A DNA stretch of 63,025 nucleotides, counting the filler, from Sphaeroforma arctica JP610 (lineage: Eukaryota), in assembly GCF_001186125.1 (NCBI RefSeq). It is 4 parts of 2 records of this genome, joined end to end, with 100 filler letters (N's around TTAATTAATTAA, not from the genome) between each part and the next. Parts side by side here need not be neighbours in the genome. Positions count along the whole stretch, not along the records: positions 1 to 17,905 come from NW_014040549.1; 3 more parts are not named here. The stretch is one strand, 5' to 3'. The position numbers and the translations under genes are program-made. Shown piece after piece: positions 2 through 61,025 of the stretch. Position 1 is the stretch's first letter. Every line of letters starts with the position of its first letter. Below the pieces are notes generated by a model. It saw nothing but the letters and a program-made list of their open reading frames with translations. It was not told the origin of the DNA and did no database searches.

Positions 2-442
2 ATATGCGTTGCGTTGATTGATCCTTGTTCAGAAATTTCATGTATATCCGGTCGCTTTGCATTAATGAAAGATATCGAAAGGAGAACACAAACAACTCAC
101 CTCATTTTAGCCGATGATAAAACTTCTAAGTGTGATACCATGGCCACAGATGTTAAAATCTCCATGGCCGATGATAGGAGTATCACCACCCAAGCTGTGA
201 TAGTTAAGATGTCACAGAAGTACGACATTATAGTCGGAATGAGCGATTTTCTCACTCTGGGCATAACCGTAACTGGTCTACCAAACAACATATATCCATT
301 AAAGGATCAGTCAGACGATAACTGTCTGAATCCATATAAGCCCCCGTCAGATACAGCTAAGGCATTAATACCTGACTTTGCGAACAAAATCATGGATCTG
401 ATTCTAGTTAATAAGAAGACAAAGATCACATATCAGCCTTGA
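2..442 (+). pseudogene. Retroviral-type aspartic protease of element A
   Basis: ICVALIDPCSEISCIS ... YDIIVGMSDF; DPC in place of D(S/T/P)G. Confidence 0.7.
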
Positions 443-452
443 CTTAACCAAG

Positions 453-1732
453 GTGGACTTTACACAGTTAAAGTGTCCCTCAAGGAACTATGTATCCTGG
501 AGATTCGAGTCTGTGGTAAAAGAACAAGTTGAGAAATGGCTAGCAGATGGAGTGATAGAAATTAACTATCAACAGACGCCAGTTAACTTGGCGCTGCTAG
601 CCGTAGACCAACATAACTCTGACGGATCGTTTAAGAAAGTCAGAGTATGTTTAGATACAAGTCCAATACATAAATCATTGCCGACTCATAGCTTTCACTT
701 ACCTCGTATTAACGAGCTACTGCGAAGGATGGAAGGTGCTACAGTATTTACAACTATAGACCTTACACAAGGATACCATCAAATGCAGGTATATGAACCA
801 CACCGTAAATACTTTAGCTTTACGTGGAAAGGTAAATAATACCGGTTCAGAGGTTCACCTTTCGGGTTGCACTCTTTACCAGCATTCTTCTAACAAGTAC
901 TGGAAGAAATGTTTGCAGACATGTCTAACGTGCAAGTATACATAGATGACATAGTCATCTTTTCCAAAACTAATGGCGAACACGCCGCATTAATCAGACG
1001 AGTCCTTAAGAGACTCAACGAGCAAAACTTCAAGATTAACGAGAATAATGTCACTTCGCCATGAGCGAAATACAGCTCCTAAGCTACCGAATATCTGGGG
1101 AAGGTATTAAAATCGACCCCGGTAAGGTAGAACACCTGTTAGATTGGCGAACACCAACTACAGGAAGAGATGTTAACAGCATGTGTGGGTTTGTAAACTT
1201 CTTTTCAGATGGAGTACCTCACTTGGCTGACTACCTTAATCCTTTTGGACACTTAAAATGTCTTAAAGGCAAACTAGAAGACTTGTGGACTAAAGAGTGT
1301 GATGACGCATTTAAAGCGCTCAAACACGCAGTCCAGCAAGCCCCTGTTGTACAGGGACCAGTCGATGGCGTGCCGTTTGAAATAGCAACGGACGCCTCCG
1401 ACTTAGCCTTAGGAGGAGTATTATATCAGGTTATAGATAGCAAACCTATATATATACAATTCGTTAGTCGGGCAATGAATGCTTCACAGTTGAATTACCT
1501 ACCTGTGAAACAAGAGTTATTAGCCATAGTGGCAGCTCTAACACACTTCCGAGATTACTTATACGGAACAGCATTTACGCTGATGTGTGATCAGAAATCT
1601 CTTCAATATATGAAAGAGATGAAACCCGACTCGCAATTACTGAGTCGCTGGCATGATACAATATCAAAGTTTCATTTTGATATAAAACATCTGCCAGGAA
1701 TACATAACCATTTACCGGATGTGTTATCACGC
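453..1732 (+). pseudogene. Reverse transcriptase and RNase H of element A (in-frame stops, frameshift near 1050)
   Basis: ORFs 453-839 and 1061-2230 plus the intervening frame YRFRGSPFGL..QVYIDDIVIFS. Confidence 0.93.
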
Positions 1733-1769
1733 TTCGTACCGGACTCTAATAAATCCGTACGTGAGCTAC

Positions 1770-2175
1770 TAGCCACTGACAATCCCAGTGGGTTTAAACT
1801 GGCTCAAAAGATATTTGGGCCATATACCATAGATATGTTTGCTGCGCATCATAATGCACAATTATCGAATTACAGGACTTTGAATCATCCTTTGGGAGAT
1901 GCCTTTCAACTAGACTTCCCCAAACATAATGCGTGGGCTAATCCACCATGGCAGTTAATTGCCCAATTACTAACTCATGTTCATATACATAAAGCTACCA
2001 TCACGTTGTGTTGCCCATTACGGAGTAAAGATCCGTGGCCCAGTAAATTAATAAGAATGATACAATGCGAGCCAATATATTTAGATAGGGAAGTAGATAC
2101 TTTCCTATATCAGGGTACCCGAGCTGTCCAGAAGACGCCCTGGAGACATATTATATTATGTCGTATAGGTCCCAT
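1770..2175 (+). CDS. Dam-like N6-adenine (amino) DNA methyltransferase domain of element A, in frame with RNase H
   Basis: FGPYTIDMFAAHHNAQL (D at 1832) ... DAF ... NAWANPPWQLI (NPPW 1940-1951) ... LCCP..PW ... DTFLYQG..KTPW..IG; matches the DIRS1/phage-Dam-type pattern. Confidence 0.88.
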
Positions 2176-2251
2176 TGGAACAACCAAATGGACCCCTTCT
2201 GAGACCTTCCTTAACAAGGTCAAAGAATAGGAGATTCCGCTCTACACTAGA

Positions 2252-3660
2252 TTGAACGTTAAGCACTTCAAAAGCAACACAGCACCTGAAGTCTGTGCGC
2301 AAGAAATAAAATCTACTAGTGCCACTGTCAAGAAGCGTCAGTCTCTAGCTAGGACTCTGTTTAATAACATAAAGTCCAAGCCCGAAGTCTTTCAGACACT
2401 CTTACTAAAGGGATTAATGAAAGATAATCCCGAAGTATATACACATATAATGCGAGTATTAAATAAGTCAAGTGTATCAAACGCAATTGAGCGCACTCAT
2501 GACACTCATGCAAAAGAAGGACAGGAGTCTGGATACACTGCAGACTTAGAGACCACGCAAGTGGATCCTCAACACCCTACCTTTATACTGGAGGAGCTTA
2601 ATGATAAAAACATTATTGCTTGGCTGACGCAAAACCATAAGCTGAAGCACCAGAACGTAGTAGACGCACTTAAAGATGCTAAGCGAAATGGGATCGCGCA
2701 CCCTCAGCTGGCAACTTTAGTTGACAGAATATATCAGTCATGTACAGACTGTGATCTCATTCAGATCAAGCGCTATGGGTTCGCACCACTTAATAGTGTG
2801 ACCGAAGATGTTCCATGGCGCAGGGTCATCATTGATCTGGTTAACCTGCCCACGTCCAAGCACTCAGGCGACCGTTATGTATGCCACTTCTTTGATGTGG
2901 CGTCACGGTTTAACTTGCTCTATCCATTAAAGGATAAGAATACGCAGACCGTGGCAGAATCATGTTGCCAAGTCTTTGCTGACCACGGGTGGCCAGGTAT
3001 TATGTGCACTGATAACGGTAGTGAGTTCTGCGATGACGTAATGGAATCGCTAGTACTCGTATCAGGCATATGCCATAAGAGAGGTGTGCCATATAAGCCG
3101 CAACGCAAGGCGCGAATGAAACGCGCCATAGAAGACTCGAGTTCTTCTTGCGTACTGCATTAACGGATGATGCAGATGATTGGCCGTAACACCTTAAGTG
3201 GGTACAACCACAGATGAACGAGTGTGTTGATCCGGTTACAGGAACTACACCCGCTCGCTATTTTTGTGGCAGATATAGTGAGTTACAAATCCCCTTTAAC
3301 AAGGACGAACCTGATCACCGTGAGCTACCCTGGCTAGAGAAGGTACAACGTATTTATAACGTTGTATATCCTTGCTTGCGAGAAATACGCAATATAGCCT
3401 TATTAAAAAGGCGAAAGCGTTGAAACACTACCAAGAAGATAGCAGAGTATCAGGTTGGTGACAGAGTTAACATCCGTCAACGTAATTCCGATGCTAATGT
3501 ATTAACATTTAAATGGATAGGTCCATATATAATCTCTGTAGCAGACACTAAAAGTGGAACGTACGAGGTAAATAAACCAGATGGTTCTAGTGCGCATAAT
3601 ATAGGCACAAGTCGTATTCCGACTACAGAGATTATACTCGCAAGAAGACATGACTCTAAT
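2252..3660 (+). pseudogene. DDE integrase of element A (Zn finger, core, GPY/F), frameshifted near 3110
   Basis: HKLKH..CTDC, PWRRVIIDL, FFDVASRF, TDNGSEF, PYKPQ, KWIGPY. Confidence 0.9.
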
Positions 3661-4205
3661 GCCCCTCTTGATCGTTCTTAACTTAAAGACATTTTATGGA
3701 GAACGGATAAGGAAAGCTATACATACTATCGTACACGCTTTATAGACGGTACAATAGCTGAGTTGACTTCAGATGCTTTCGATAATCAAGACGATTTGAA
3801 ATTTAATCGAAAATGGCATAAACGCCTGCATAAGTCACGAGCTGAAAAAGATAGCATGTTTCCATCGTCTGAAGGCACGGAAGTTAAAACTTATCCGCCT
3901 ACAGCAATTATCCCGAGCTTTAATGCTCATCCTTTATATATGCTTAAGACACTGAAGCGCAACAAACGTCCAGTCGACCAACATNNNNNNNNNNNNNNNN
4001 NNNNNNNNNNNNNNNNNNNNNNNNNNNNNNNNNNNNNNNNNNNNNNNNNNNNNNNNNNNNNNNNNNNNNNNNNNNNNNNNNNNNNNNNNNNNNNNNNNNN
4101 NNNNNNNNNNNNNNNNNNNNNNNNNNNNNNNNNNNNNNNNNNNNNNNNNNNNNNNNNNNNNNNNNNNNNNNNNNNNNNNNNNNNNNNNNNNNNNNNNNNN
4201 NNNNN

Positions 4206-4619
4206 GCCAACCAGATGTGCCAGTCTAATGAAGGCTAAGTCGGTAATTCTTGATAAGTGGCAAGTTATTGGTTAAGACAAGAACTAAGGACATCAAGAGT
4301 ATTTTTATTCTTCTTCTAAAGATAGGATTTAATGAGTCTCTCAGATTCGCCCCAACGAAACATACCATAGTTTCTAATAGAGCGACAACGAAACACTAAA
4401 TAAAATCCCTTCGGCGGAAACAGTACTGAGAGAATTATATATAGGCAATGTCTCAGCCTCACAATCCCTCAGAGTATTGATGTTTTCACGAGGCATACCT
4501 AACTTTACTAAAAGTCTCATTTCGTTGATTTACTTTGATATTTTCACGATACTTAGAATTTACCTGCGCGTTTATTTACTATAAGGCGTTAATATCGCCT
4601 TATTATACCGAATCTTACA
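4206..4619 (+). repeat. 3' portion of LTR, probably the 3' LTR of element A
   Basis: Close reverse-complement match to 36260-36686; ends ...ATCTTACA; its 5' part falls in the N-gap. Confidence 0.8.
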
Positions 4620-4819: not shown

Positions 4820-5235
4820 CGAAAATTGTATGCTTGATAGTATCGATTGGACATAGGCAATGGCATTTCTTGAGTGTACTCCCACCATAGACAGTTTAGG
4901 CATTTGTGTATCGAAATCTAATGCGCGACTACCCTGGTTCTTCGGTCCTGATAGGGGGGGGGAGGTGGGGGCGTACTCTACAGTGACTGGAGCAAGCCCG
5001 ATCCCATTCTCGAAGACGCGTACGCTAACCCCGGCTGGAGCCTCATAAAAGTCATTGTCGAACTCATTTTTCGACTTGGTATTACGCTTACCTTCGTAGT
5101 TCCTCTACGACCTTGTGCTACATGATGGACCATGCTTATCAGCCGCATTCGACGACCTCCATACATCATACCAAGCACAGCAAGTCGGTGTACCTTCATG
5201 GACATTCCCCCTGGTCCTCATCATGGGCCCTCCTA
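4820..5235 (+). pseudogene. Dam-like MTase domain inside Copia element B (frameshifted)
   Basis: NCMLDSIDW*AMAFLECTPTID..SKSNARLPWFF, shift at G-run 4954-4962, then SDWS..DAYANPGWSLIKVIVELIFRLGITLTFVVPLRPCAT*WTML (NPGW 5027-5038), shift, then QQVGVPSWTFPLVLIMGP; collinear with the Gypsy MTases. Confidence 0.75.
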
Positions 5236-5562
5236 CCACCACTGTTGTCCCAGTTGAACATCTCCAAGCCGCAAATACATATACCTCGCCAATCCTGAAT
5301 TCGACAAGCATTGCCCTATCTGCACAGAGGGCAAAATAAAAGTCAAAGCAGTCCCACATCATAATCCTGTATCTGTCTATAGACCAGGCAACCGATTTCA
5401 TGTGGACCTCCAAGGTCCCGTGCCTGAGTGTCATTTCGGATTTCGATATGCACTCAATATGATTTGCGATGGCTCACGCTATGGTCTACATATGCTTCTC
5501 AACGACAAGGAAAATATGGCCCCTCATGGTGACAACATTACCAACTCTAAACACCTTGCCAG

Positions 5563-6530
5563 TGTAAAATCAGCGGGTTCATATAGTAGAAGCACATGTT
5601 ATCGTATATTATAAACGCATGAACGTCTAAACGCTATTACGTTTATAAAACCTGGTATACGTTGAAACACAATTGTCGATAATTGTATCTGTATAATAAT
5701 CAAATAATCTAATTATAGATATATTGAATTTACAGAAAACAGACAAACAAATAATCTAATTTGGATATTTGGAATTACAATTGTATACGACAGAGGCCGA
5801 GAGACTCTGTTAATATTGATATGATGGTTTTTCTACAAAGATATGTTTTCCATCAGAATATAGGGATACAACACTGGGTGAGTCTCAGGTGGTATTGACA
5901 CTTGATGACACATGCTGTATTACCAAATACTCTGAGAGCGCGAGATAGCCTACTGAGAAATGGGACATGAAAATGACCCCCCCTAGCCGGCCAACTAGAT
6001 GTGCCCGTCTATGCCTTCAATGGGATGGAGAGCTAGGTACCATGTGATGGGGTATAGGTACAGACATTTAACTGTACCATCATGGTGTTTTGGATTTCTT
6101 TTATTTTTCTTAAGTTGGACTTCGAGTTATTTTATTTGTAATTGCGATTGGGAGGTAGTTTCAAGGCATTGTAGAAGGAAGTACCATGCATTCAATGAAA
6201 TGAAGTATACTTAGAGTTCTTTTTATTGGTAATTGTGATTGGGAGGTAGTTTCGAGGCATGAAATAATATTGAAGGAAATATCATGCATCCAATGAAATG
6301 AAATCTGTTCTTAGTTATTGACACCGAATAAATCTAGACCGAAGTATTGAGTGATTAGAGCGGAACCATATAGATAATAGTCTCAGTCTGACATCCCCCA
6401 ATCTTTAGCTCAATACCAAGGGTTGAAGCTAAACTTAAATTACATTGTGCAAATTTACTTTGAAATCTTACTTTTCTTTTACGTTAACTTATTGAAACCG
6501 ATAGTCAGCCTGGTTAGTCTGACTTCTACA
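5563..6530. mobile_element. LTR-like insertion (about 970 bp) splitting the Copia B integrase core
   Basis: TGTAAAATCAG...CTGACTTCTACA imperfect inverted ends; AT-rich and non-coding; internal duplication about 6124-6303; no matching TSD. Confidence 0.55.
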
Positions 6531-7906
6531 TACAAGCTACTTTCTCAAAGTAACAATGTTCGATCTAACCCTCCGTACACACCGCAAATGAATGCCAAGG
6601 TTGGAAGTAGTCATAAAGTTCTTGAATGTTATAGTCCGTTTATTCCTACTAGGCGCTGGCATGCCCTGTAGACTATGGTCTGATGCTAAGAAATGAGCCG
6701 ACCGTAATCGCAATGAAACACCCGGCACTGATTCAATTATTCGTACACCATCTGAGATCTTGCACCAAGTGACCCCTACTCGGTATTATCGTGCTCGATT
6801 CGGCTGCGTTGCTCTATACAATATGGAAGGCAAACGCAAAGACAAGCACAAATATGGCACTCAATGTCATCACGGTGTACTAGTCGGACGAAGCGCCACA
6901 GGCACTGAGGACACATATTTTTATCCAAAGTCTTGAGACGCAACGCAGAATATCATCACGCAATGTTCAGTTTCTCTCTGACGATAAACCACAGTGGTCA
7001 GCTAATGGAAAAGAGCGACTCGATCCAATACTCTCCAAAGTCATGCCATACAATCGGATTGGCATACTCAGGCGACCGTTCCCACTGTGATTGTTCCTCA
7101 TGTCTTAGACACGCCTCCTTCTGGCTTTCTATTCCTCAAACTCCGGTTACCACCACGGCAATATTTCTCAACACAGCCTGCGGCGCCCACCGTAATTATA
7201 TCTCTACCACCTACTCCGATGCCTATCATTCCACCGATGCCACCAGCTACCCTTTGCTTCCAGACAATAATCAGCATTCTGATTCCAAACCTGATCTTTC
7301 TCTTGTCGCAAATAAGCACTCTACGGAATTACCCGATATTATTGATTTGTCTGACAACGACGAAGACTCCAAATATTACGAAGCTATCCAGGAAAACACT
7401 AACTACGTGGCTACGACTGCCACTGTCGTAGACCCAGCACCAATTCGTGATGAGATGACAATGCTGGAAGCCATCTCTCTCTTTGATGACAGCGTTCTCA
7501 AGTCCACATCCTTGGCTACGGAGTTTGACGATTGGGATCAATGGCAAGATGCTATTCAGATGGAATTCAAAGCACATCAGTTGAATGATTTGGCTGACAT
7601 TGTTCCCGTGTCTGCTATTCCTCAGGGTACCAAAGGTATCCATTCTAAGTATGTTTTCGTCCAAAAATTTAACGAAACTGGTAAGCCTATCTGCTACAAG
7701 ATACGAATGTTTGCCATAGGAGACGAACAATTGGAAGGTGACTCTTATACACACACGTATTCTTCTGCCATCTCTGCCACGGCTCTTCGATTATTCATCG
7801 CCAAAGCAAGCAGCCGCCAAACCATGAATACATCACTTCGATGTTGATAATGCATTTTTTTAATTCCAAACTTGACACGGCAGTTTACATGATTCTGCCG
7901 GAAGGA

Positions 7907-8239: not shown

Positions 8240-9348
8240 TTGAGGCTGTTGTGTGGTTCGTTGATGCTATTGAGTAGTTTTTTTGAGGTTGTTGTGTGGT
8301 TGGTTGATGCTATTGTGTAGTTGGTCGAGACTGTTGTGTAGTTGGTTGATGCTATTGTGTAGTTGGCTTAAGCTGTTGTGTTGTTCGTTGAGTCTGTTGT
8401 GTGGTTAGTTGAAGCTGTTTTGTGGCTTGTTGAAGACGTTGTGTGGTTGGTGGAGGCTGTTGTGTCGTCAATTGATGCTATTGTGTAGTTGGTTGAGGCT
8501 ATAGTTGTGTTGTTGGTTGAGTCTGTTGTGTGGTTGGATGAAGCTGTTTTGTGGCTGGTCGAGACTGTTGTGTGGTTGGTCGAGGCTGTTGGGTGGTTGG
8601 TTGAGGCTGTTGTGTAGTCAGTTAATGCAATTGTGTAGTTGGTTGAGGCTGTTGTGTAGTCAGTTAATGCAANNNNNNNNNNNNNNNNNNNNNNNNNNNN
8701 NNNNNNNNNNNNNNNNNNNNNNNNNNNNNNNNNNNNNNNNNNNNNNNNNNNNNNNNNNNNNNNNNNNNNNNNNNNNNNNNNNNNNNNNNNNNNNNNNNNN
8801 NNNNNNNNNNNNNNNNNNNNNNNNNNNNNNNNNNNNNNNNNNNNNNNNNNNNNNNNNNNNNNNNNNNNNNNNNNNNNNNNNNNNNNNNNNNNNNNNNNNN
8901 NNNNNNNNNNNNNNNNNNNNNNNNNNNNNNNNNNNNNNNNNNNNNNNNNNNNNNNNNNNNNNNNNNNNNNNNNNNNNNNNNNNNNNNNNNNNNNNNNNNN
9001 NNNNNTATTGTGTAGTTTTTTTTAGGTTGTTGTATTGTTTGTTGATGCTGTTGGGTGATTGGTTGAAGCTGTTGTGTGGTTGGTTGAAGCTGTTGTGTGG
9101 TTGGTTGAGGCTGTTGTTTGGTTGGTTGAGGTTGTTGTGCGCTCGGTTACCGATAGACTTTTTTGCGGTCGGTTGAGGATGTTGTATAGTTGGTTTATAC
9201 TATTGTATTGCTGGTCGAGACTGTTGTGTGGTTGAAATATGCTATTGTGTAGTTGGTAGAGGCTGTTGTTTGCTTGGCTGATGCTATTGTGTAGTTTTTT
9301 TAGGCTGTTGTATTGTTTGTTGATGCTATTGGGTGATTGGTTGAAGCT
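8240..9348. repeat. 21-bp GT-rich minisatellite (consensus about GGTTGAGGCTGTTGTGTGGTT) spanning an N-gap
   Basis: Directly visible 21-nt periodicity on both sides of the gap. Confidence 0.9.
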
Positions 9349-9956: not shown

Positions 9957-10287
9957 TGTGGCATTTAGGGACCAGATTATCAAAAAGCCAGTCCAAATCC
10001 CAAAACCAAGGATTATCAAATACTTAGTTTTGGATCCAGGATCCAATATTCTGATATTAGCGTGATCAGAAATCTAGTGGGATTACCGATAGACAATACC
10101 GGGACTCTCGCGCGTGAGAGAAGCACTTATGTATGAATCGAGTCTAGTGTAGAAAACACCAAACACAAATAAAGACTCAATGCGAGTGCTTCAGCCTAAG
10201 ACTTTTACCTAGCTGAGAGATCTGCACTCGAGAAGAGGTCTATTGTTACCTTTGGTCGTACCTTGTAAGCTACTCTCAAACTCTGCA
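9957..10287 (+). mobile_element. Solo LTR (331 bp) related to the LTR of element D, inserted in the integrase of element C
   Basis: TG...CA; collinear similarity with 38318-38637; flanks CTGC/CCGC (4-bp TSD with one mismatch); integrase frame continues across it. Confidence 0.82.
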
Positions 10288-11695
10288 CCGCGGAACAAGA
10301 TGCGTGTTACATAAACGGATGAGTACGGAAGCGTGCATGTCGGTAGACTTAAGAGGCTCACCAAAAGCCCGAAGTGTACAGCCATCATGTGCCAAGAGGA
10401 CATATGAGTATCTTTTGGCATCAGGAGGAAGGGACATGTAGTCCAAATTAATCTTATCAGACATGGCCGCCGGTCGGGAACGCTGTTGTAAGAGACCTCG
10501 CGTGCGGCCGGTTGATAGTCTAACCTGAATTATGCCACTATACGTCTCCAAACCCAAGGCTTGGCGACGGCCAGCCAAGAGGTGGCTATACCCGTCATGC
10601 CATATCCAAATGACGGCATGGACCCGTTCGGGGCACACAGGTTGATCCATGCATGTAAGGTGTAGGGTCTCAATCTGTTGAAACACTGATGTGTCGGTTA
10701 CAGGGTGGCGATGTCGTACCGTATTCGTCCGGCGGTTATGGAGGGGGGCACCTGTGTGGGGTGCGGTTGATACCGTGTACGGGATGTCAGGCGGGAGTGC
10801 TGGACGAGGCTGCCACTATTTTTTAGGGGACAGTGGTTAGTTGGCGGAGAGGTCCTTGTCAGGACCTTGTGTAGCTATATCGTTATCCGATAGGTCAGGG
10901 TAGGGCGAGGTGTGCGCATTCAATGAATGCTGCACTGCGAGTTCTTGGTGCTGGCGAATCCAATCGCCAGTGCCAAGTGGAACCTCTTGAAAGGAAGGAA
11001 CGGCATCGTTAGCCGTGTAGCCCTGATCAGGATGGTACTCGCTATTATATTCCTGGATAGCCACATTCAGCGAGGCTTTGAACGATGATGTGTCGGGTTG
11101 GGTCCTGGTCGGAAAGTCGTCGGTGCGGGTGGGCATGGCGTCGGCGACGTGTGATCATCGTTCGTCCAGCGGTCGGAGGAAGGGATCCACCATGAAAGTT
11201 ATGTACATGTGGTAATTGTCCGTTGCTGGGACAGGCGACGGAATGCTGGGACAGGCACAGGCATGTTATCTTTTATTGCGTCCGGGACGGCCTCAGATAT
11301 GGTAACGTCGGGTGCATCCGCACAAAATTCCGTTGGTTCAGTGGGAGCATGGGCAGTGTCTGGTGTAGCGGTCATGAGCATTGGTTCGTCTTCATCTATA
11401 AGCTTAGTTTTCATCCACAAATAAGGAAACGTTCCGGTTAGTGGCTGTCCTCCGTGGCTGGCATGAAAACATCCGAGAGGGAATCGGATCCCGTCACCAC
11501 TGGCGGAACAGGTAGTGGGCTGTCCGGTGTAAGGGCTGCAGCAGGGACTCTCAACGGGATTGGAGATATTGTTGTCCTCCGTCAGAGAGATGTAGTGATG
11601 TACAGCATGGGGTCATAGCCGATCGTGAGAAGGCAGTTGGGAGGACGGTAAGGCCGACTCGCTTCCAGAAACTGGTCGGGACCACAAATAGCGGT

Positions 11696-12130
11696 TAGGC
11701 CCCACGAAGGTGTGCGATAAGCGTGAATGGCCACGGCGGTTTACCCTCGATATGCCTGCCTCTACGGGGATATGTGTCGTCACGGTGTGAGATGACAAGT
11801 GACGTTTCCAGGACGAGGCGAAAGACGACAGATAACTAGACGGCCGATGGCCAGAAGGAAACGCATGCGACCACGGACGTAAAAATAACGTCCGGAACTC
11901 GAACACGAAGGAATCCACCGATGTCCGTTCAGGGCAAGGTCATCTAGCAGTGTTTATGTTGGATCCTGGACGGAGTACGCGTCCTGAACACATGCGCCCG
12001 TGCCGTCCTTTGTAGATCGTGAGGACGTGGTCCTCATGGCTGGCGAACAGCTCAGAGTCGAATGGGGCCCATATTTGTTGCTACACATCAATCCATAGAT
12101 CATTGATAGCCCAACTAGTGTGGTCCAAAA
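11696..12130 (-). pseudogene. Degenerate Dam-like MTase domain of element C
   Basis: DHTSWAINDLWIDV*QQIWAPFDSELFASHEDHVL (ELFAS 12039-12053), DAYS, HC*MTLP* at the NAWANPPW position (11929-11952), ACVSFWPSAV*L, DDTYPRRGRHIEGKPPWPFTLIAHLRG (GKPPW 11731-11745). Confidence 0.78.
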
Positions 12131-38637: not shown

Positions 38638-41600
38638 TTTTTACAATATCCTTGAAACATAGATAAGTCAACCAGAATCACAATACGCTAAAGAAATTAT
38701 CGTAATTAGTGAAACAGAATTCAGTACAGTTTTAAGACCACTCTAAAGTAATAGAAGATTATTACGAACAAGATGAAGTTAACTTCCAAGAGGTGCCAAC
38801 AGAAAGAAGTTGGAGCCGCTACCCAGGACTGCCGCGGAAATAAGAACGAAGAGGAGCGAAAGAAAGAGACGTTCCGCCGATAACGTGGCCTTAGGACAAC
38901 AACCAAGGTAACAATATCGTGTCCAGAAGCAAGCTGGACACGTGTCAAGGAAGTACGAGTGTAGTTATGATCACAGAGAGAACATCCGCGTGTAGAAAAA
39001 TTAGAAGTGCCACGTTGATTAATTAATCAATGTTGGGGATTTTCGAACAAGAAAATCTACTGACGTCAGGGGCCCTACACAACAAAGCTAGGTAAACTAG
39101 ATAAAATAGCACAAGCGATAAAATTTCTATCAACTAGCTAGAATTATGAGTCTACCAACTAATACATCTACAGAGAAACAAATAAAACATTAACGTAAGG
39201 TGCACACATCACAAGACAGTCAGGCAGTACAAGTGTTGTTATGATCACAGAGAGAACATCCGCGTGTAGAAAAATTAGAAGTGTCACGTTGATTAATTAA
39301 TCAATGTTGGGGATTTTCGAACAAGAAAATACACTGACGTCAGGGGCCATACAAGATAAACTTGAATGAAGTAGCATATACAAACAACAAATAATAAAAG
39401 ACAACATACCCCCTCTCGACACATTTATTGTTAAAAAAATGTATATAGCCGAAGGCTCTTTAATTTAAATCTAAGCAATTTTTGTACGATAAAGTCACTA
39501 AATGTACATAAAAAAATTGGAATTGTCGCTAAATGTACTTTTGTACATATTTGATCCATATTTCAGTGCGTTTTCATCGAGAAAAAGGGTGAATGTAAAT
39601 TCAGTGACTTTTCCACATTTCCAATGTACATTTAGCGACTTTGTTCATATATCTGTCAAGGCAACTGCGTCCTGGTTAGTAGGTTTATATCCAAGCTGGG
39701 ACAAATAGTACCGGTGCCTATATCGACTCTATACAAGATGAGAGTAAGCATTCATGATCCACAGCCAGAATGATGCATGCCACTCGTGGATGCGGAGCTC
39801 AGACGATGATATGATTTAGCTATCAAGGATTGTGGTGACGATGAGGAAGATGATCTCATTCAAATAAGTCAATACATTAGTGAGTTAGAGTTCATGCGTT
39901 CACGCTTAGGCGACCAGATAAACGAAGCACCTATGACTTCAGAATTTCCTAAGCTACCAAAAGATAGCTACTTTGGAAAATTGTGAAGACACCATAGAGT
40001 TCACTACGCAATGTAGAGATATATTCCTAGCGAAGTCCATGCCGCTGTGTCAGTACCCAGCACTAGTGGCCTATTAGACTCCACTGATGCAACGGAGAAG
40101 ACCAAGTCGATACTCAATAACTTAAGAGATTCTGAGACGCGTACAACTAAGCACTTCAAGGAACCTGAGCAATTCAATAGAATCATTATTGACAGGCTCA
40201 GGCCCCACCCAGTAGACTATCTGTTGGATAAATACCTCGGTGACATGCAGAACAAGAAGTTGAACGTCGAAATGCGCACAGAGCATGCGCATATGACAAT
40301 GGCGATGTTCGAGGAGCGTTACCGCAGCTCAGAAAAGGAACCCATACACTATCCCCACATCAATTCAGTCTATGCCCCAAGAAGGCTTCGAAGCAGGCCA
40401 AGCAGGCTGAGGCGCAGGTCAAGAAGGATGTGCAAATAGCAAGACTGTCCATTACCTCTGGCAAGGTAGAAGATATCACGGAGGGCGATGAACACTGAAA
40501 CAACTGGTGGGCGGAAGCAAACATGATTGACCTGGCTGGCAGACTCAATGTTTATACAGATGAAGAAACGTTCTTAATAAATGCAAATGAATTAAATTAC
40601 CAACGGTTATCATTACTTCCCGCACACGAGATCAACGTTTACACATAGATATACAAATTAATGGCAATACATACAATGCACTAGTAGACTCGGGCGCATA
40701 ACGCTCATGTATGGAGAAGAGTGTAGCAACAGAACTATGTCTTTCCGTCAGAGCGCAACCGGGTTATATACAATTAGCACAAACAGATGCAAGAATACAA
40801 CTCACAGGATCAACTGGAGTTTGTGACATCAGTTATGGATGTTGGAAAACCTCTCAGTTTTTTGAAGTATTGGATTTACCAGACAAGAAGGCACCAATAC
40901 TTCTCGGTATGGACATTTTACCATACATAGGTATATACATAGCAGGATAAATCAATCCACAGATACCAACGGATGCGAAGTAGGAATCACTCCTCACTCC
41001 ACATGAAGAGGACCCTGAGCATAAACAAGAAGGCTTCAGGGAGTCACTTGCATATCTTCGAGATACCAACACGAACATACCTCCTGACGAACATTGCAAC
41101 CTACCAGGCTCCACAGTCACAGTACCTGCAAGTGAAACTAATGTCAGACAAATGAGGCACGCTAAAGTCAAATTTGTACCTCACCAGTATATTCCACAAA
41201 CGGATGAGAGTGTACAGGGGTGGCTTACAGATGGTCACATGTACAAACCGAACTACACCCAACAACAGTAAATTTACCGTTGTTATCAACAGATCAACAT
41301 GATCAAACAGCTCTCCTCAAGAAAGTACAGACATGCCTAGACTAACGCGAGATCAATTATTAATATGAACAAGATAAGTTTGAGTTACCGAAAATAAAGG
41401 AAGTACTACACAACCTACAAGGAGCACAGTTCTTTTCAAAGCTTGATCTCACTAGAGGATGTCACCACTTTCCAGTAGACGAAGCAAGTCAACACTTCTT
41501 CACATTCTCATGGAGAGGAGCGCAATACTTATTTAAGTCAGCGCCGTTTGGACTACACTCACTCACAGCACAGCTCCGGGGAGCCATGGCAAACTTGTTA

Positions 41601-42549
41601 ATAAACATCAAATGAGTGCAAGTGTATGTAGATGACATAGTCATTGCAAGTCTTACAGAAGAAGAACATCGTAAGACAGTTCGTAAAGTAATCTAGCGAC
41701 AGAATGGAGCAGACTTCCGTCTCAATCACAAGTGTGCCTTCGCGGTCAAAGTGGTCAACATTCTAGGTTTGAAAGTCACCACACAGGGACTCAAAGCAGA
41801 TCTTGAAAATTAGAAAAGGATGATGGACTGGCCACTACCCAGAACAAAAATAAATCTACACAAAGCGGTGGGACTAGCAAATTACAAGCGCGACCATGTC
41901 CCCAACTTTGCCCACACAACTAAACACTTCCGAAACATCATGAAAGAAAAATTGAATCATAACATATCCATGTTATGGACTCCGGAACTCAAAAAGAAGT
42001 GGGAAGAACTCAAAGAAGCCATCGCCTATTCAGCGACATTAGCATACCCTGCTGATGGGGTACCGTTTCAAATAATGAATGATGCTTGTGACTATGGCAT
42101 AGGAAAATGTTTATGTTTTATTTCAAGTCATCGATGGGGTTAGAAGCGACATTCTCTACTTCTCGAAAGGCTTGAATCCAACACAACAACGATATGGCAG
42201 AAATACTAATGAGCTACTAGCACTCGTATACAGCCTGGAACAGTTCTCCGACTATATCAAAGGAGGGGACATAACACTGTGGACAGATCACAAAGCACTC
42301 ACGCAAATGAACAGTCAACAGACGTTACACCCAATGCTAGCCAAATGGATAGCAAAAGAATTACACCACCACTTCTCCATCATACACGTCCCAGGCAAGG
42401 ACAACCAGATGGCAGACAGGTTGTCGCGTCTACATGAAAACACTTCGAATACTAAACTTCGAAGGTACTACAAGAAGCGAATGAAACAACACAATATAAC
42501 CAAGAGTATATCACATAGGAACCGAATATATCCACAACTATATCAGCCA

Positions 42550-42990
42550 TAGACTGAATGTTACACTCCAGATTCTACCAAGAAGCTGAACGAGAATGTT
42601 ACACTCCAGATTCTACCAAGAAGCTGAACGACGGTTTGGGAAATTCACAGTGGATCGATTTGCATCGGCACACAATACACACACAGATAAGTACTACACC
42701 AAAATTCATAACGCGCTACAACAAAAGTGGGCGCAGGAAGTGAATGCATGGGCGAACCCACCATGGAAACTCATACCTGATATCCTTGACGAAATCATTG
42801 AAGAGGCAACCAGCATCACGATATGTGCACCATACTACCCCAATGCAACGTGGTTTCCAAAATTCTTGTCTTTACTAGAAGAAGACCCGATGCTAGTGGA
42901 AAAGACAAACAATACTTTCCTCAAAGAAGGCAAGAAAGCTTGTGGCAAGACCCCATGGGGTGTCACATTAGTCGTAAAGATAGGAGTGAA
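42550..42990 (+). CDS. Dam-like MTase domain of element D
   Basis: D*MLHSRFYQEAERRFGKFTVDRFASAHN..NAWANPPWKLI (NPPW 42755-42766)..ICAPYYPNATWF..NTFLKEG..GKTPW..KIG; a 38-bp tandem duplication (42556-42631) shifts the frame at its start. Confidence 0.9.
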
Positions 42991-44188
42991 GTGTCCATAT
43001 CTTGACTCAACGCGGGAACAACGTGCCATACACGTTGCAGCATCAGAACCAGTTCACTCTGGAGATGCACCACAGGCAACAGAATACGAGACACGTGTCA
43101 ACCTCATCGAGCAATACCACAAATTGAGAATTTACACTCTTGAGGAACCGATACATAAGTTGGAAGCAATGGACATGGTTGGCCTGATATCCAACAACAT
43201 GTACACAAGTTCATTGACGGATGCATACCATGTCTCAAAAATAAGATACACAAAAAAGGAATTCCATCCCTTACAATCAATCACAGCCACATTTCCAGGC
43301 GACAGAGTCCAAGTGGACACCATAGGGCGGGCCACTATTGGATTCCAACAGAGGGCACACATATGTGTTAGTATGGCTCGATGTACACTCATCCGTATGT
43401 CATATTACTCCGATGATGGACAAATGAGCGGCTACTATAGCACGCACGCTAGTACCAATCATGTGTGACCATGTATTTTCACAAATCATACAGACTGACC
43501 AAGGCACTAAATATTAACAACATGCTTCCGAAAGTTGTTGAACAAGCGTCAATGCAACACCTAGTCTCTCGGCCGTGTCAACCTAAAGTCTTAGGTGCGA
43601 ACGAACGATCACACAGAGATCTCATGCCACTGTTACGAAAATTCGTTGAGCAATACCCAGGTAACTGGTGTTCACGACTTCATTCGTAGAGATGGGTCAC
43701 AATCTGCGTACATCAAGAAGGCACAAGTCACCACGATTTAACGTGTACTTTGGTCGCAGACAGAATCAACTAACGGACTACAACGAGCCAGTGACCGCAC
43801 CCAGTACAACAGTATATTGGGAAGAGCGACTGCAGAATCTAGAAGAAGCCATCAGGCCACAACTAGACAATAATGTTGTACAATATCAAGAGAAGATGCG
43901 CGCAGCATACGGTCAAAAATACCAAAAGAAATATGTAAACTTCCAGGAAGGGGACTTTGTCATGGTTCGCTATCAAGGTGAAATGAACAAGTTAATAGCA
44001 CCAAATGGCGGACCATACAAAGTAGTACACAGGGAGGGCAATGGGTATTTTTTGTCTGTAGCCTTGATGGGAATAAAACCCCCGAATATCCTGACTCGAT
44101 CAGTGATGAGCTACTTGGACTTGTAAAAAGGACCAGTGCTCCGGAAGCATTTACTTCCAATAATCACGCACAACAAAACGAGAAGACT

Positions 44189-44330
44189 CAGTTCTCCTCG
44201 ATAGTCGACGACAGGCCGTACATCCGAGGTGATAGATCCCAGGAGTACCTACTGCAATGGACAGATGGGGAGCGTACCTGGACGCATGAATCAGACATCA
44301 CAGATGCTGATGTCATTGCAACATACCGTC
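44189..44330 (+). pseudogene. Chromodomain at the C-terminus of the element D integrase
   Basis: QFSSIVDDRPYIRGDRSQEYLLQWTDGERTWTHESDITDADVIATY. Confidence 0.75.
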
Positions 44331-44794
44331 AACGCCATAGATGCAAACGAAGGCAGTCAAGGCCAAAGAAGCCGGCGACGACGAGCACTGATGAAAGATC
44401 AGCGAGCAACAGAAAGCGCACAACTAAGCAAGTCTCACTGATACCACGGGACACTTCCACTTTTCTCGCCTTGAAGCATGCTCACCAGAGGGACAAGGAC
44501 CAAAGACTCGGTTGTAGAGCCACCATTGAGAAGCGCTTTCCTAAGCCAAGTTGAGATCAACCAAGAGCACCGGTCAAGACTGACTAAGATGAGCGTGGTA
44601 GAGAACTCCTGTCATAGTATAAAAGCCAATATCCGTCTGTGAATTAGATTACCGATATGCAAAAGTATGTACGAGCACATCAAATTAATGAGGCACAGAG
44701 GATGAGGAGTTTTTGCTTAAAAATGACAAGAAAGTTATTAATGCATCAGGAATATTTACAAAACTCAAGAGATTGTACCGATATGCTAGTGACC

Positions 44795-47232: not shown

Positions 47233-47557
47233 GCCAGCCCCATCATCTCAATATGCGGCTTCACATTGGAATGATTGGGTTAGGTGTACCATTTCACGCT
47301 TCACATTTGGGACAACTAAAATGTATTGACATTGATTTCATGGATACGCACCGTTGGCCCGCAATTATTTAATTTTGCTCTATCTGCTAAATATCTGCCA
47401 GCCCCCATCATCTCAACATGCGGCTTCATATTGGAATGATTGGATTGAGTGTACCATTTCACGCTTCACATTTGAGACAACTAGGACGTGTTGTCATTGA
47501 TTTTATGGATACATACCGTTGTCGCGTAATTTTTATTTTACTCTATCTGCTAAATAT
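47233..47557. repeat. Two-copy tandem duplication (about 164 bp)
   Basis: Directly visible. Confidence 0.8.
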
Positions 47558-48208
47558 ACTTCATACTACAGAGTGAAGATTATAACACAACATCACACAA
47601 AAAATAAAATTTATAAGTAGGTCTCTTCATTATGGTAAGCAAAAATATATATAACAAGTTTGATTTTTAGTTGATTTAATTTACAAAGAACGCAGTGTAA
47701 TAAATACAGTAGTTCGGTCACTTAAAAATGTAGTCAAAACCGAGAAACGCTTAGTAGAGAATGTTAAGTCTGAATAAGTGATATCAGTCAAAAGTACCGT
47801 TCTGAATGGCGCACTTGCTGTATTTATTAATCATGTTCCTATATGGGACTCGATTTCTTCTAACTACTGGTCATGTGAAAATATCCGTATCTAAGGTTTT
47901 GGTTTCCTAGTTACAAATTTATGATGATATCCGATGAGTCATCATCCTCTCTCACTAAAATCTATATTGCACTATCTGGTCCGGTTATCTGGCCCGGTCC
48001 TGAAATTGATCTTTTAGGTCTGGTCCTCTGGTCCGGTCCTACATCCCGTCTACGGTACTTTGTCCTGACACAGTTTCGCAACCTACGTATGTTGAACAGC
48101 TAGTTACGAAAATTGAACCCTTGGAGAGAGTAAGTACATCCATGAGTACATCCTTTGATGTTCATCTGTCTCGCACAGTTCTGCAGGACTCTGAGTTTCA
48201 TAACATCA

Positions 48209-48607
48209 TCGGATCCTTAATATTAGGAAACTATGACTGGGGAACCTCTAGTGAGTTCGGGGAGGATTTGTGTCTTTGTAAGTATCCTGATGCGAGCTAT
48301 ACTGGATAGAAGGACAAACGATCTCATATATGATACTTTGGTCGGATCATTATTATTAGGATACTATGACTGGGGAACCTCTAGTGAGTCCGGGAAGGAT
48401 TTGTGTCTTTGCACGTATTCTGATGCGAGCTATACTGGATTGAAGAACAAACGATCTCATATATGATACTTTGGTCGGATCCTTGATATTAGGATACTAT
48501 GACTGGGGAACCTCTAGTGAGTCCGGGAAGGATTTGTGTCTTTGTACGTACTCTGATGCGATCTATATTAGATAGAAGATCAAACGATCTCATATATGAT
48601 ACTTGGG
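48209..48607 (+). repeat. Three tandem 133-bp copies of the Copia RNase H first-motif region
   Basis: Units start at 48209, 48342 and 48475; each encodes LCLC.Y(S/P)DA.Y..KRSH. Confidence 0.9.
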
Positions 48608-50339
48608 TGTCCTTGCAAATGCTCGATTATACTTGAGAGCGCGCAGTCAGACCCTCGTCGCTCTCAGTACAGCGGAATCCGAATAGATAGGCCTTGTGGA
48701 ATCCTGCCGTGATGTCAACACCGACTTGAATCTGCTATCTGAGCTTGGTCGTTCACAATAACCTGCCGGGTTCGTGTTGTTAGAACAACCAAATTGCTAA
48801 GAAGATGGCGGAAGAGTTGGCTACCAAGCGTAATATCCATATATATGCTAAGTATCCCTTTGTACGAGAGTTGTGAACTAAAAAACGATACGAGTTGACG
48901 GTCGCTGATGCTTTGACTAAAGCACTACCGCGAGCTGTATTTGTGACACATCGCAATCAGATGTTGGATCTTCGCTGTTATAAATGCACCCTCGTGTCTA
49001 CGTATATTTGTAAGTGCGCCTAGCTTATGGGGGAGTCATATGAGCAACAGCAGCTAAATTCTTTCGTTCGTGGGGGTGTCGAAATGTATATTGCCGGACT
49101 GGGAAAAGTCCAATTGGCGGACTCAGCCTTAGCTGAATGTGTTGTATAGTATTTTTCCTGAACACAAGCTGTGTTTACGAGTTGGTTTAATGTGCTGATC
49201 AGAAGTTCTTGAAATTATGTATACAAGAGTTTTAGTAGGTGTAATGTTGCACACTTTAGACTTGGATATCATATGGTGTAACAAATACAGTTAGGGGTTT
49301 GCCGAGAAAATAGAGATGGAACGGCCGTTCAATCCGGCTATACTTTATGCAAATACCCGTATGAATACCCTGTCAAAACGTAAACAACGTTTACATATAT
49401 AAAGTAGGCAAGTGAGTTCGACACCTGATATGTTCAAGTTACTGTGCGAGCATTGAAATCATCTCAATCCAAAGTATCGCCATCATTGCCAATTGTACAC
49501 ATCCGTTCCAATTCCAAGATCATCTTACCCTTTCATATACGATGATGGATATTTGAACTGCAGCCCATAAATGAAATTTCGACACCTATTATGATCAAGT
49601 CTCCCACACCTAACAACGCGAGTAACAATATCATTGTCATTAAGACATCATTGTCAAGTGTGGGCTCATCCGAACTGGCAGATGGAAATCCAAGATCGAA
49701 GCCAGGAGCAGAATCGGCATCTGATATTCTATTCGCTGTCAATCTCCGCCATTTAAATGATCCCCGAAGGGCAAACTTTCGAGAACAATAATTGCCCTCG
49801 AAAGTCTTTGTACGGTTCGTATTTACGGCATTCGGAGTTGTTTTACTACAATTTTGATTTTACTTGAGAACTGGATTCAGTACTGATTACAATTTCCATT
49901 CTTGACCAATCGATGTATTTACTTTTAATGAGTCTGTCGTCTCTAGAAATTAACAAAAATGGTTACAAATTAAATACATTTAAAATTACTCATTGACACA
50001 AACTTTCAAATGATTAAAAGTTTCTGACCCCAACGATCAACATTCACACCAAATCTGTCCTACTCACCATGTTGCAAGATAATCTCGTCCCTTTAGGAAC
50101 GCGTAGCCACTAACATTTGGGTGAAAATAGTATATAACTGGACGCACATATGGTTCTGTGTAGTAAAATTAGGAAATCGTGCGATAGTAAATCAACCAAT
50201 GCAAGTGCAAATGTCATTCCAATACTTTAGAAAATAAGACCGTCTAGTAAACTGGCATCATCCAAAAGGCGTCAGCTCCGTTGACAGTACCCGATTCTCG
50301 TCACAGAAAAAAAAAGGTACGGTCGCGCCTACCAGTATA

Positions 50340-52770: not shown

Positions 52771-53516
52771 TTGCAGTTGTTAGCTTAAGTTCGTATAACT
52801 CTTTGCAAATTCTACTACATTTATTGCCTTGTTCTCTAATCTATACTTTAGTGCAAGCGAACAAGTGTTTGTGCGTGTGCTATGATTGCCTATTTATACA
52901 CACAAATACACTCTATATTTATTCTAGTTATACAATCGCCATCTGCCCATACCCGAATGGCTTTTTAGAGGTTACTCGTTATGCCCTCTCGAGCCTATGA
53001 CAAATTAAAGAGTACAAGAAGACGGCGCTTTCAACTATTATACAGTTGCGCCGTAAATGCAACGTAAGATAAAGTGGCCGCCGAGGAAGAAGCCACTAGA
53101 GTCAAAGTGAAGCGTATTGCTAAACAACAAGCCGAGAAGGATCGTTTGCAGTTGTTAGCTTAAGTACGTATAACTCTTTGCAAATTCTATTACATTTATT
53201 GCCTTGTTCTCTAATCTATACTTTAGTGCAAGCGAACAAGTGTTTGTGCGTGTGCTATGATTGCCTATTTATACACACAAATACACTCTATATTTATTCT
53301 AGTTATACAATCGCCATCTGCCCATACCCGAATGGCTTTTTAGAGGTTACTCGTTATGCCCTCTCGAGCCTATGACAAATTAAAGAGTACAAGAAGACGG
53401 CGCTTTCAACTATTATACAGTTGCGCCGTAAATGCAACGTAAGATAAAGTGGCCGCCGAGGAAGAAGCCACTAAAGTCAAAGTGAAGCGTATTGCTAAAC
53501 AACAAGCCGAGAAGGA
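52771..53516. repeat. Near-identical tandem duplication (about 375 bp x2)
   Basis: Units start at 52771 and 53146. Confidence 0.92.
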
Positions 53517-60552: not shown

Positions 60553-60989
60553 CTGTGGAGATAAACGTGGGGTTGGTTAGCAACAAAGCATGCAAAATAT
60601 GGGATCGCAAATCATGTGCGGTGTAGACATGGAAATGATCCGGGGTATTTTAATGCGGATGATCGCGTTTTTTAAGTGAAGAAAGCATCGGATAGCAATC
60701 AGAAATTTTGTCATATTTCCCTTAAACAATGTGCAATCTTCGAGCCAGGCGGCACACATATCACACTGTAGCAAATAACAAACTGATGCTGGTCTGAGAA
60801 TTATTCAAATGTTACATAGAAATGTCGAATTGCTAGTAACGTGGGCTGTGAATCAATTCGACATAATCTAACTAGAGTTAGGAGGACATAGTTAGATAAA
60901 TACGAATCCAAGACATACATATCAATACACGATAAATGGAGATGAATATGTAAGCATATTTGAAATGAAGTATATGGATACAATTGTAC

Positions 60990-61025
<36 letters not shown>

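What the first reader, a model, noticed from the sequence alone, without database searches (positions are those of the whole stretch)
1061..3660. Ty3/Gypsy retrotransposon with a Dam-like DNA methyltransferase between RNase H and a DDE integrase
Seen: one ORF runs from the RNase H end (DVLSR) straight into IDMFA..NA..DAF..NAWANPPW..P..W. The integrase follows in the same frame after a single TAG (2228-2230). Established: this phage-Dam-like domain is a hallmark of DIRS1-type tyrosine-recombinase retroelements, where it follows RNase H. Ty3/Gypsy Pol is normally PR-RT-RH-INT, and NPPW fits the (D/N/S)PP(Y/F/W) catalytic motif of 6mA/4mC methyltransferases. Inference: this is an integrase-type LTR lineage encoding its own amino-methyltransferase, perhaps marking its cDNA or insertion site. 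I do not know of this as a described standard architecture.
Basis: partly seen in the sequence, partly recalled or inferred. Interest (0 to 1): 0.93.

Follow-up and report, generated by a model that had tools for sequence, protein, structure and literature searches.

The report
Decayed Gypsy retrotransposon carrying Dam-like methyltransferase
This is a broken copy of a Gypsy-type jumping gene in a single-celled relative of animals that carries an adenine-methyltransferase-type domain between its RNase H and integrase; the design is real and would likely mark the element's own new copies, but a 2026 preprint already described it in this same species.

Summary
Observation confirmed. ORF 1049-2230 runs from RNase H into a Pfam Dam domain (28.7 bits, cutoff 28.1; NPPW at 1940-1951), and a DDE integrase follows in frame. 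Two intact relatives hold RT-RH-Dam-integrase in one 1,376-1,400-aa chain, collinear with this copy. The RT groups with Ty3/Gypsy, and the domain is as conserved as RT/RH (66-68% vs 28-30% in the linker). The TAG is one of six in-frame stops in a dead copy, not a designed break.

A host gene in the window matches Sphaeroforma arctica. The architecture is the 'ichthyosporean DAM-LTR' lineage of bioRxiv 10.64898/2026.05.21.726589 (May 2026), which profiled this species; its E. coli methylation test was negative. So the finding is real but known, and this scan met the same kind in other genomes.

Two additions here. The lineage keeps a C-terminal chromodomain-like fold that the preprint says it lacks (Pfam Chromo in 9 of 12 segments, not in this copy's subfamily). 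The closest solved structure of the domain is the RNA cap methylase PCIF1, while the closest predicted ones are phage Dams. The substrate is unproven.

The parts
8..430 (+). Aspartic protease region of Pol (remnant; the element runs off the window start, gag not seen)
   Evidence: tblastn to P0003 residues 35-175, 50%; weak Pfam RVP_2 E 0.011
426..1055 (+). Reverse transcriptase, two in-frame stops (837, 891), frame change near 1045
   Evidence: tblastn to P0003 185-395, 64%; RT tree
1049..2230 (+). Open frame: RT end and tether, RNase H, Dam-like domain
1358..1735 (+). Ty3/Gypsy-type RNase H
   Evidence: PF17919/PF17917; best solved matches are Ty3 RT/RH 4OL8 and Ty3-G Gag-Pol 7Q5B, E 2.5e-24 and 4.2e-24; own profile
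1781..2173 (+). Dam-like (PF05869) N6-adenine methyltransferase domain; IDMF 1829-1840, NPPW 1940-1951; three residues of the N-terminal motif missing in this copy
2228..2230 (+). TAG, a premature stop of this copy
   Evidence: P0002, P0003 and SARC_02119 (P0018) have an ordinary residue here
2231..2617 (+). Poorly conserved linker between methyltransferase and integrase
   Evidence: 28-30% identity among relatives
2618..3285 (+). Integrase: HHCC zinc finger and DDE core, cut by a frame change at about 3101-3112 and a stop at 3187
   Evidence: rve E 2.8e-9; own profile
3424..3678 (+). Integrase C-terminal (SH3-like) part
   Evidence: weak Pfam MLVIN_C E 0.02; collinear with P0003
3676..3837 (+). 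Degenerate chromodomain-like segment at the end of Pol
   Evidence: 59% identical to the P0003 segment whose model matches chromodomains; no Pfam Chromo hit by itself
4206..4619 (+). 3' part of an LTR ending TTACA, likely this element's 3' LTR (an N gap, 3985-4205, lies between)
   Evidence: 91% identical over 427 columns to the solo LTR at 36260-37030
36260..37030 (-). 771-base solo LTR, TGTAA...TTACA, with a 4-base target-site duplication (CTTA)
40624..44428 (+). Second, divergent decayed DAM-LTR element (PR-RT-RH-Dam-IN-chromo-like); Dam domain 42596-42985 with NPPW
   Evidence: Pfam Dam 50.9 bits; collinear with P0013

Best explanation
This is a dead genomic copy of a Ty3/Gypsy LTR retrotransposon of the ichthyosporean DAM-LTR lineage, whose intact relatives encode protease, RT, RNase H, a Dam-like domain and integrase in one chain, and whose Dam-like domain likely methylates adenine in the element's own new cDNA or RNA:DNA hybrid. 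Shown here: the domain order, one chain in relatives, Gypsy-type RT and RNase H, a methyltransferase fold with NPPW, conservation of the domain, and decay of this copy. Inferred: the domain is packaged with RT in the virus-like particle, places 6mA on the reverse-transcription product, and the host maintenance enzyme AMT1 then keeps that mark after integration, so that new copies sit in transcription-friendly chromatin (the preprint's model). The identity of the element is about 0.95 likely; the mechanism about 0.5.
For: One chain: P0002 (1,376 aa) and P0003 (1,400 aa) align in order over window 8-3912; 9 of 29 database proteins that I picked from the top and longest hits have Dam and rve in one chain, 3 more Dam and the integrase zinc finger. 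Gypsy RT: in a 111-row RT tree the 34 DIRS-like rows are one side of a branch (SH-aLRT 100) and this RT is on the other, in a 13-row group (92) whose members all carry the domain, among them Abeoforma whisleri P0010. The same small groups recur in the methyltransferase tree (this copy + P0002 + P0003, 100/100), so RT and domain travel together. Conservation: 66% and 68% identity in the domain vs 62/61% RT, 71/73% RH, 28/30% linker. Motif: NPPW or NPPF in 120 of 173 aligned relatives. Fold: best predicted viral matches are phage DNA N6-adenine methyltransferases (E 1.8e-7, TMq 0.62). Host: USP gene 100% identical to SARC_00361 of S. arctica. Preprint (whole text read): DAM-LTR insertions of S. 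arctica and A. whisleri are more often 6mA-marked and more expressed than other LTR elements.
Against: No catalysis has been shown: DAM domains from DIRS, DAM-LTR and an adintovirus did not raise 6mA in Dam-deficient E. coli. Iyer et al. (PMC4738411, passages) judged all DIRS1 copies likely inactive. The close intact relative P0003 has CPPW for NPPW, and 53 of 173 relatives depart from NPP[WF]. The preprint notes that the eukaryotic domain lacks the first catalytic part and half of the target-recognition region of canonical Dam. The 6mA enrichment is a correlation and could follow from transcription. The closest solved structure is an RNA enzyme. The 13-row RT group has 92% SH-aLRT only, under the starred level.
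Confidence: 0.5

Rival explanations
1. Same element, but the domain is a non-catalytic module kept for binding nucleic acid or SAM (template handling, particle assembly, or a decoy), and 6mA on these elements is laid by host AMT1 because they are transcribed.
For: Negative E. coli test; Iyer et al. call the DIRS1 domains likely inactive; CPPW in intact P0003 with the rest of the domain still 66-68% conserved; FPP, HPP and other variants in 53 of 173 relatives.
Against: NPPW is kept in this copy, in the second window element, and in most LTR-type relatives; the DxFA motif is nearly invariant. E. coli genomic DNA may be the wrong substrate.
Confidence: 0.25
2. Same element, but the domain is an RNA N6-adenosine methyltransferase like PCIF1/CAPAM, acting on the element's genomic RNA (near the cap or internally) to change its stability, translation or packaging.
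For: All 4 Foldseek PDB matches at E<=0.001 are PCIF1/CAPAM (best E 2.7e-5, TMq 0.53-0.57); VIA-align ranks PCIF1 first of 48,161 chains (Z 9.3, rmsd 3.1, 126 aligned) above T4 Dam (Z 7.5) and E. coli Dam (7.4); 11 of 48 relatives match Pfam PF12237, the PCIF1 family, best E 1.7e-7; Iyer et al. place DIRS1 domains in the PCIF1 clade. It would explain the negative DNA test.
Against: Phage DNA N6-methyltransferases match better than PCIF1-like viral proteins among predicted structures (ranks 1-3 vs rank 20 on); Pfam Dam matches 43 of 48 relatives vs 11 of 48; identity to PCIF1 is 13-16%; a fold does not name a substrate; the PDB ranking depends on which families have been solved.
Confidence: 0.2
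3. The TAG at 2228 is a programmed read-through or a real end of gene that separates RT-RH-Dam from integrase.
For: The integrase ORF follows in the same frame. The letters that other genomic copies carry at 2228-2230 were not among the rows shown.
Against: P0002 and P0003 are single chains across this point; SARC_02119 aligns on both sides with an ordinary residue here (63 of 135 identical); five other stops interrupt this copy, and at 837, 891 and 3189 over 99% of the summed contig depth of run X1 shows another letter.
Confidence: 0.03
4. A DIRS element (RT-RH-Dam) lies next to or inside an unrelated Gypsy integrase, or the join is an assembly artefact.
For: RH followed by Dam is the DIRS order; the window is a gapped, repeat-rich assembly with nested remnants.
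Against: RT and RH are Gypsy-type; independent intact chains have the same order; a second divergent element in the window repeats it.
Confidence: 0.02

Closest known systems
Ichthyosporean DAM-LTR lineage (Fernandez-Moreno, Romero Charria... de Mendoza, bioRxiv 10.64898/2026.05.21.726589; whole main text read; its figures and supplements could not be seen)
   Same: Ty3/Gypsy-type RT and DDE integrase plus a DIRS-derived Dam-like domain with an Asn-Pro-Pro triplet; host S. arctica; nearest named relatives of the domain are Abeoforma whisleri proteins and other S. arctica copies.
   Different: The preprint says this lineage lacks chromodomains; here most members keep a C-terminal chromodomain-like segment below the Pfam cutoff. 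Its main text does not mention PCIF1. This copy is dead. I could not match this family to one of the preprint's own sequences.
DIRS1-type tyrosine-recombinase retrotransposons with an MT (Dam-like) domain (PMC4738411 and PMC6338049, passages only)
   Same: Homologous domain placed after RNase H; same DxFA and NPP[WF] motifs.
   Different: RT is Gypsy-type, integration is by a DDE integrase in the same chain, and the nearby LTR has TG...CA ends and a target-site duplication.
Dam-less chromodomain-bearing Ty3/Gypsy elements of Mucorales (Rhizopus, Absidia proteins; control locus L001)
   Same: Nearest RT-RH relatives without the domain (about 40% identity); RT-RH-IN-chromo order.
   Different: No methyltransferase: only 2 of the 117 new proteins carry it; their chromodomain is canonical.
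Phage DNA N6-adenine methyltransferases (PF05869) and PCIF1/CAPAM
   Same: Same fold and NPP-type motif.
   Different: 13-24% identity; here a 130-140-residue domain inside a retrotransposon polyprotein, with no shown activity.

Membership tests
DAM-LTR (ichthyosporean lineage) | PF05869 Dam domain at E<=1e-5 | tested here: met
   E 1.2e-6 for the domain, 5.3e-6 in the ORF
DAM-LTR (ichthyosporean lineage) | RT groups with Ty3/Gypsy, not DIRS | tested here: met
   (SH-aLRT 100 between the sides); Ty3 is the best solved match of the RT-end/RH part. The DIRS-like label is mine, from RT plus terminal Dam in a short chain; no recombinase was looked for
DAM-LTR (ichthyosporean lineage) | DDE integrase in the same element | tested here: met
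   rve in frame; one chain in P0003 and others
DAM-LTR (ichthyosporean lineage) | Host is Pirum, Abeoforma or Sphaeroforma | tested here: met
   USP gene 100% identical to S. arctica SARC_00361
DAM-LTR (ichthyosporean lineage) | Dam domain groups with the other ichthyosporean DAM-LTR domains | tested here: inconclusive
   It falls in a 20-row group with the Abeoforma and S. arctica rows, but support is 93/60; Abeoforma proteins are the best-scoring named hits
DAM-LTR (ichthyosporean lineage) | No chromodomain (as the preprint describes the lineage) | tested here: inconclusive
   True at the Pfam cutoff, and this copy's subfamily has no Pfam Chromo hit; but 9 of 12 segments of the group match Chromo below cutoff and the P0003 segment folds like one
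DAM-LTR (ichthyosporean lineage) | Raised 6mA and expression of insertions | not testable with these tools
   No modification data; no run on record as RNA
Ty3/Gypsy LTR retrotransposon | Pol order PR-RT-RH-IN | tested here: met
Ty3/Gypsy LTR retrotransposon | Direct LTRs with TG...CA ends and a target-site duplication | tested here: inconclusive
   An LTR end follows pol in the same orientation and its solo copy has TG...CA and a 4-base duplication, but an N gap separates it from pol and the 5' end is outside the window
Ty3/Gypsy LTR retrotransposon | gag upstream of pol, primer-binding site | not testable with these tools
   Outside the window; no whole genome is held
DIRS1-type retrotransposon | DIRS-type RT | tested here: not met
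DIRS1-type retrotransposon | Tyrosine recombinase in place of a DDE integrase | tested here: not met
   The ORFs after the domain encode a DDE integrase; no recombinase family among the 9 ORFs scanned
Active N6-adenine DNA methyltransferase | Catalytic (D/N/S)PP(Y/F/W) motif on a SAM-dependent fold | tested here: met
   NPPW at 1940-1951; fold
Active N6-adenine DNA methyltransferase | Methyl transfer to DNA adenine | not testable with these tools
   Published E. coli test of related domains was negative

The most novel reading that the evidence does not exclude
The ichthyosporean DAM-LTRs are chromovirus-derived elements that pair a drifting chromodomain with a PCIF1-clade enzyme that methylates the element's own RNA or RNA:DNA hybrid rather than double-stranded DNA: a retrotransposon-encoded RNA adenosine methyltransferase, which would explain why the published DNA test failed.
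Probability: 0.18. Interest if true: 0.75.

Novelty: already known. Interest (0 to 1): 0.27.

Why it matters
If the domain works as proposed, a jumping gene writes an 'active' mark on its own offspring and so turns the host's 6mA system to its use. That idea and this lineage are already in a May 2026 preprint, so the locus adds no new kind. It still bears on an open question, what the DIRS/DAM-LTR domain does, since no activity has been shown. The data here point to two cheap leads: test RNA and hybrid substrates (PCIF1 likeness), and revisit the statement that the ichthyosporean lineage has no chromodomain.

Tried and rejected
Sequence search of the PDB with the domain and with its 48-row profile found nothing real; only fold searches did. 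No whole genome is held, so copies could not be counted and dN/dS could not be computed; per-domain protein identity was used instead. No RNA holder was on record; runs guessed to be RNA are contigs and say nothing on expression. The DNA letters of other copies at the TAG were not among the 40 rows shown of 514, so that point rests on protein relatives. The one metagenome scan gave 4 loci, none with the domain; L001 served as a Dam-less chromovirus control. No LTR pair was found around the second element. A profile of the three sequences of this copy's subfamily did not match chromodomains by itself (HHalign probability 1.2%). The methyltransferase tree does not resolve which DIRS group gave the domain (bootstrap not settled). 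Rejected: nested DIRS plus Gypsy; programmed read-through; a novel architecture. Literature searches; they found no earlier description than the preprint in the held library, and none of a chromodomain in this lineage (3 papers listed, two seen as listing only). The preprint's supplements and figures could not be seen and may already hold this family or the chromodomain point.

Full report
Observation. The window's frame +2 is open from 1049 to the TAG at 2228-2230 (393 aa). It holds the end of an RT, an RNase H (PF17919 E 1e-28) that ends in DVLSR at 1718-1732, and then a domain with IDMF (1829-1840) and NPPW (1940-1951). That domain alone scores 28.7 bits on Pfam Dam PF05869 (cutoff 28.1; E 1.2e-6); within the whole ORF it scores 26.6. 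The next ORF in the same frame (2231-3163) has an integrase core (rve, E 2.8e-9).

One element, one chain. Two database proteins, P0002 (1,376 aa) and P0003 (1,400 aa), are 64-66% identical in the domain and align in order along window 8-3912. P0003 has protease, RT, RNase H, the domain and rve in one chain. A search of 1.84 billion representatives gave 590 relatives at E<=0.001. I scanned 29 of the top and longest ones plus P0003 among them: 9 have Dam and rve in one chain and 3 more have Dam and the integrase zinc finger. A second, divergent element with the same order lies at 40624-44428 in this window.

This copy is dead. Against P0003 it has stops at 837, 891, 2228, 3187, 3421 and 3679, and frame changes near 430, 1045 and 3101-3112. 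Its methyltransferase lacks three residues of the conserved N-terminal motif. In public contigs of four runs the family is highly repeated (30,608 contigs laid in run X1), and at 837, 891 and 3189 over 99% of X1's summed depth shows another letter. The TAG site was not among the rows shown there; but P0002, P0003 and the S. arctica protein SARC_02119 carry an ordinary residue at it. So the TAG is most likely a mutation of this copy.

Gypsy, not DIRS. The best solved matches of the RT-end/RNase H part are Ty3 (E 2.5e-24). The RT tree had 111 rows: the two window RTs, 17 domain-bearing LTR-type chains, 34 DIRS-like chains (my label, from architecture) and 58 of the 115 domain-less relatives. The DIRS-like rows form one side of a branch (SH-aLRT 100). 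Both window RTs lie on the other side, in a 13-row group (92) whose members all carry the domain, including Abeoforma whisleri P0010. Its neighbours are domain-less, chromodomain-bearing elements, the named ones from Rhizopus and Absidia; only 2 of the 117 new proteins of that search have the domain. The small groups of the RT tree recur in the methyltransferase tree, but that tree's deeper forks are weak. After an N gap, 4206-4619 is the 3' part of an LTR whose solo copy (36260-37030, minus strand, 771 bases) has TGTAA...TTACA ends and a 4-base duplication; it is likely this element's 3' LTR, but the gap leaves that unproven.

The domain is kept. Identity to P0003 by part, for this copy and for P0002: RT 62 and 61%, RNase H 71 and 73%, methyltransferase 66 and 68%, linker 28 and 30%, integrase 58 and 54%. 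NPPW or NPPF stands in 120 of 173 aligned relatives, but 53 depart from it and P0003 itself has CPPW. The model (pLDDT 85.6, pTM 0.80) matches phage DNA N6-adenine methyltransferases best among predicted viral structures (E 1.8e-7, TMq 0.62) and the RNA cap methylase PCIF1/CAPAM best among solved ones (Foldseek E 2.7e-5; VIA-align Z 9.3, rmsd 3.1, 126 aligned, against 7.5 for T4 Dam). Pfam Dam matches 43 of 48 relatives and the PCIF1 family 11 of 48.

Host and prior art. The deubiquitinase gene at 59098-60576 (minus) is 100% identical to SARC_00361 of Sphaeroforma arctica. A literature search found bioRxiv 10.64898/2026.05.21.726589, whose main text I read whole (figures and supplements not seen). 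[quoted passage not shown] It finds these insertions more often 6mA-marked and more expressed than other LTR elements in S. arctica and A. whisleri, and no rise of 6mA when representative domains were expressed in Dam-deficient E. coli. Iyer et al. (PMC4738411, passages) put the DIRS1 domain in the PCIF1 clade and thought it inactive. Earlier notes of this scan report the same kind in other genomes (unchecked); I had reached my reading before seeing them.

How it most likely works. As part of Pol the domain would be packaged with RT and RNase H and so meet the RNA template, the hybrid and the new cDNA. The best-supported model is that it places 6mA on the new copy and that host AMT1 maintains the mark after integration (about 0.5). 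Rivals: a non-catalytic binding module (0.25) and a PCIF1-like RNA enzyme (0.2). Only the anatomy, the fold and the conservation are shown here; every step of catalysis is inferred.

What this locus adds. The preprint says the ichthyosporean lineage lacks chromodomains. A profile built from 42 chromodomains of domain-less relatives, run on 14 whole domain-bearing chains, found its best match at the C-terminus in 12 (1.6 to 27.4 bits; 9 above 9 bits; two pairs are near-duplicates) and none in P0002 or P0003; reversed chains scored at most -0.7; the window's second element scored 16.5. Pfam Chromo matches 9 of 12 C-terminal segments that I cut by eye, best E 3.9e-6, the misses being this copy, P0002 and P0003. 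A model of the P0003 segment (pLDDT 85.5), built with the other segments as its alignment, has chromodomains as all its listed matches (TMq 0.58-0.78, E 0.0045 and above). So the lineage likely descends from a chromovirus-type element, and this copy's subfamily keeps a more drifted version. Whether it binds histones is untested.

Verdict. Real, well supported, and already described for this species. Interest 0.27.

Noticed in passing
window 5012-5614 (+): Remnant of a third, distant Dam-like domain (23 bits, E 2e-8 on my profile) followed by a zinc-finger/integrase-like ORF (5258-5614); it lies just after the LTR end, so it may be an older element into which this one inserted.
   Followed up: partly
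window 10276-13183 (-): GC-rich (52%) decayed retroelement: weak RNase H (12275-12577) followed by two weak Dam-like pieces (12009-12119, 11701-11877) and an integrase-like ORF further on; possibly a fourth DAM-LTR family in 63 kb.
   Followed up: partly
window 6909-7847 (+): Ty1/Copia-type RT remnant (RVT_2, E 1e-5).
   Followed up: no
window 42556-42631: Exact 38-base tandem duplication at the start of the second element's Dam domain, which breaks its frame.
   Followed up: no
proteins P0020, P0034: Another arrangement among the hits: endonuclease/exonuclease/phosphatase domain, then Dam, then RT, RNase H and integrase zinc finger in 2,100-2,400-aa chains; long RT branch.
   Followed up: no
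protein P0003, residues about 690-695: An intact close relative has CPPW in place of NPPW while the domain is otherwise conserved; a natural comparison for activity tests.
   Followed up: partly
protein P0159: A weak Agenet/Tudor-like match (E 0.0039) in the linker between Dam and integrase.
   Followed up: no
window 59098-62055 (-): Host ubiquitin-specific protease gene (SARC_00361), two exons around an N gap; the only host gene I identified in the window.
   Followed up: yes
window 52771-53516, 47233-48608, 8240-9348: Tandem duplications and low-complexity repeat arrays.
   Followed up: no
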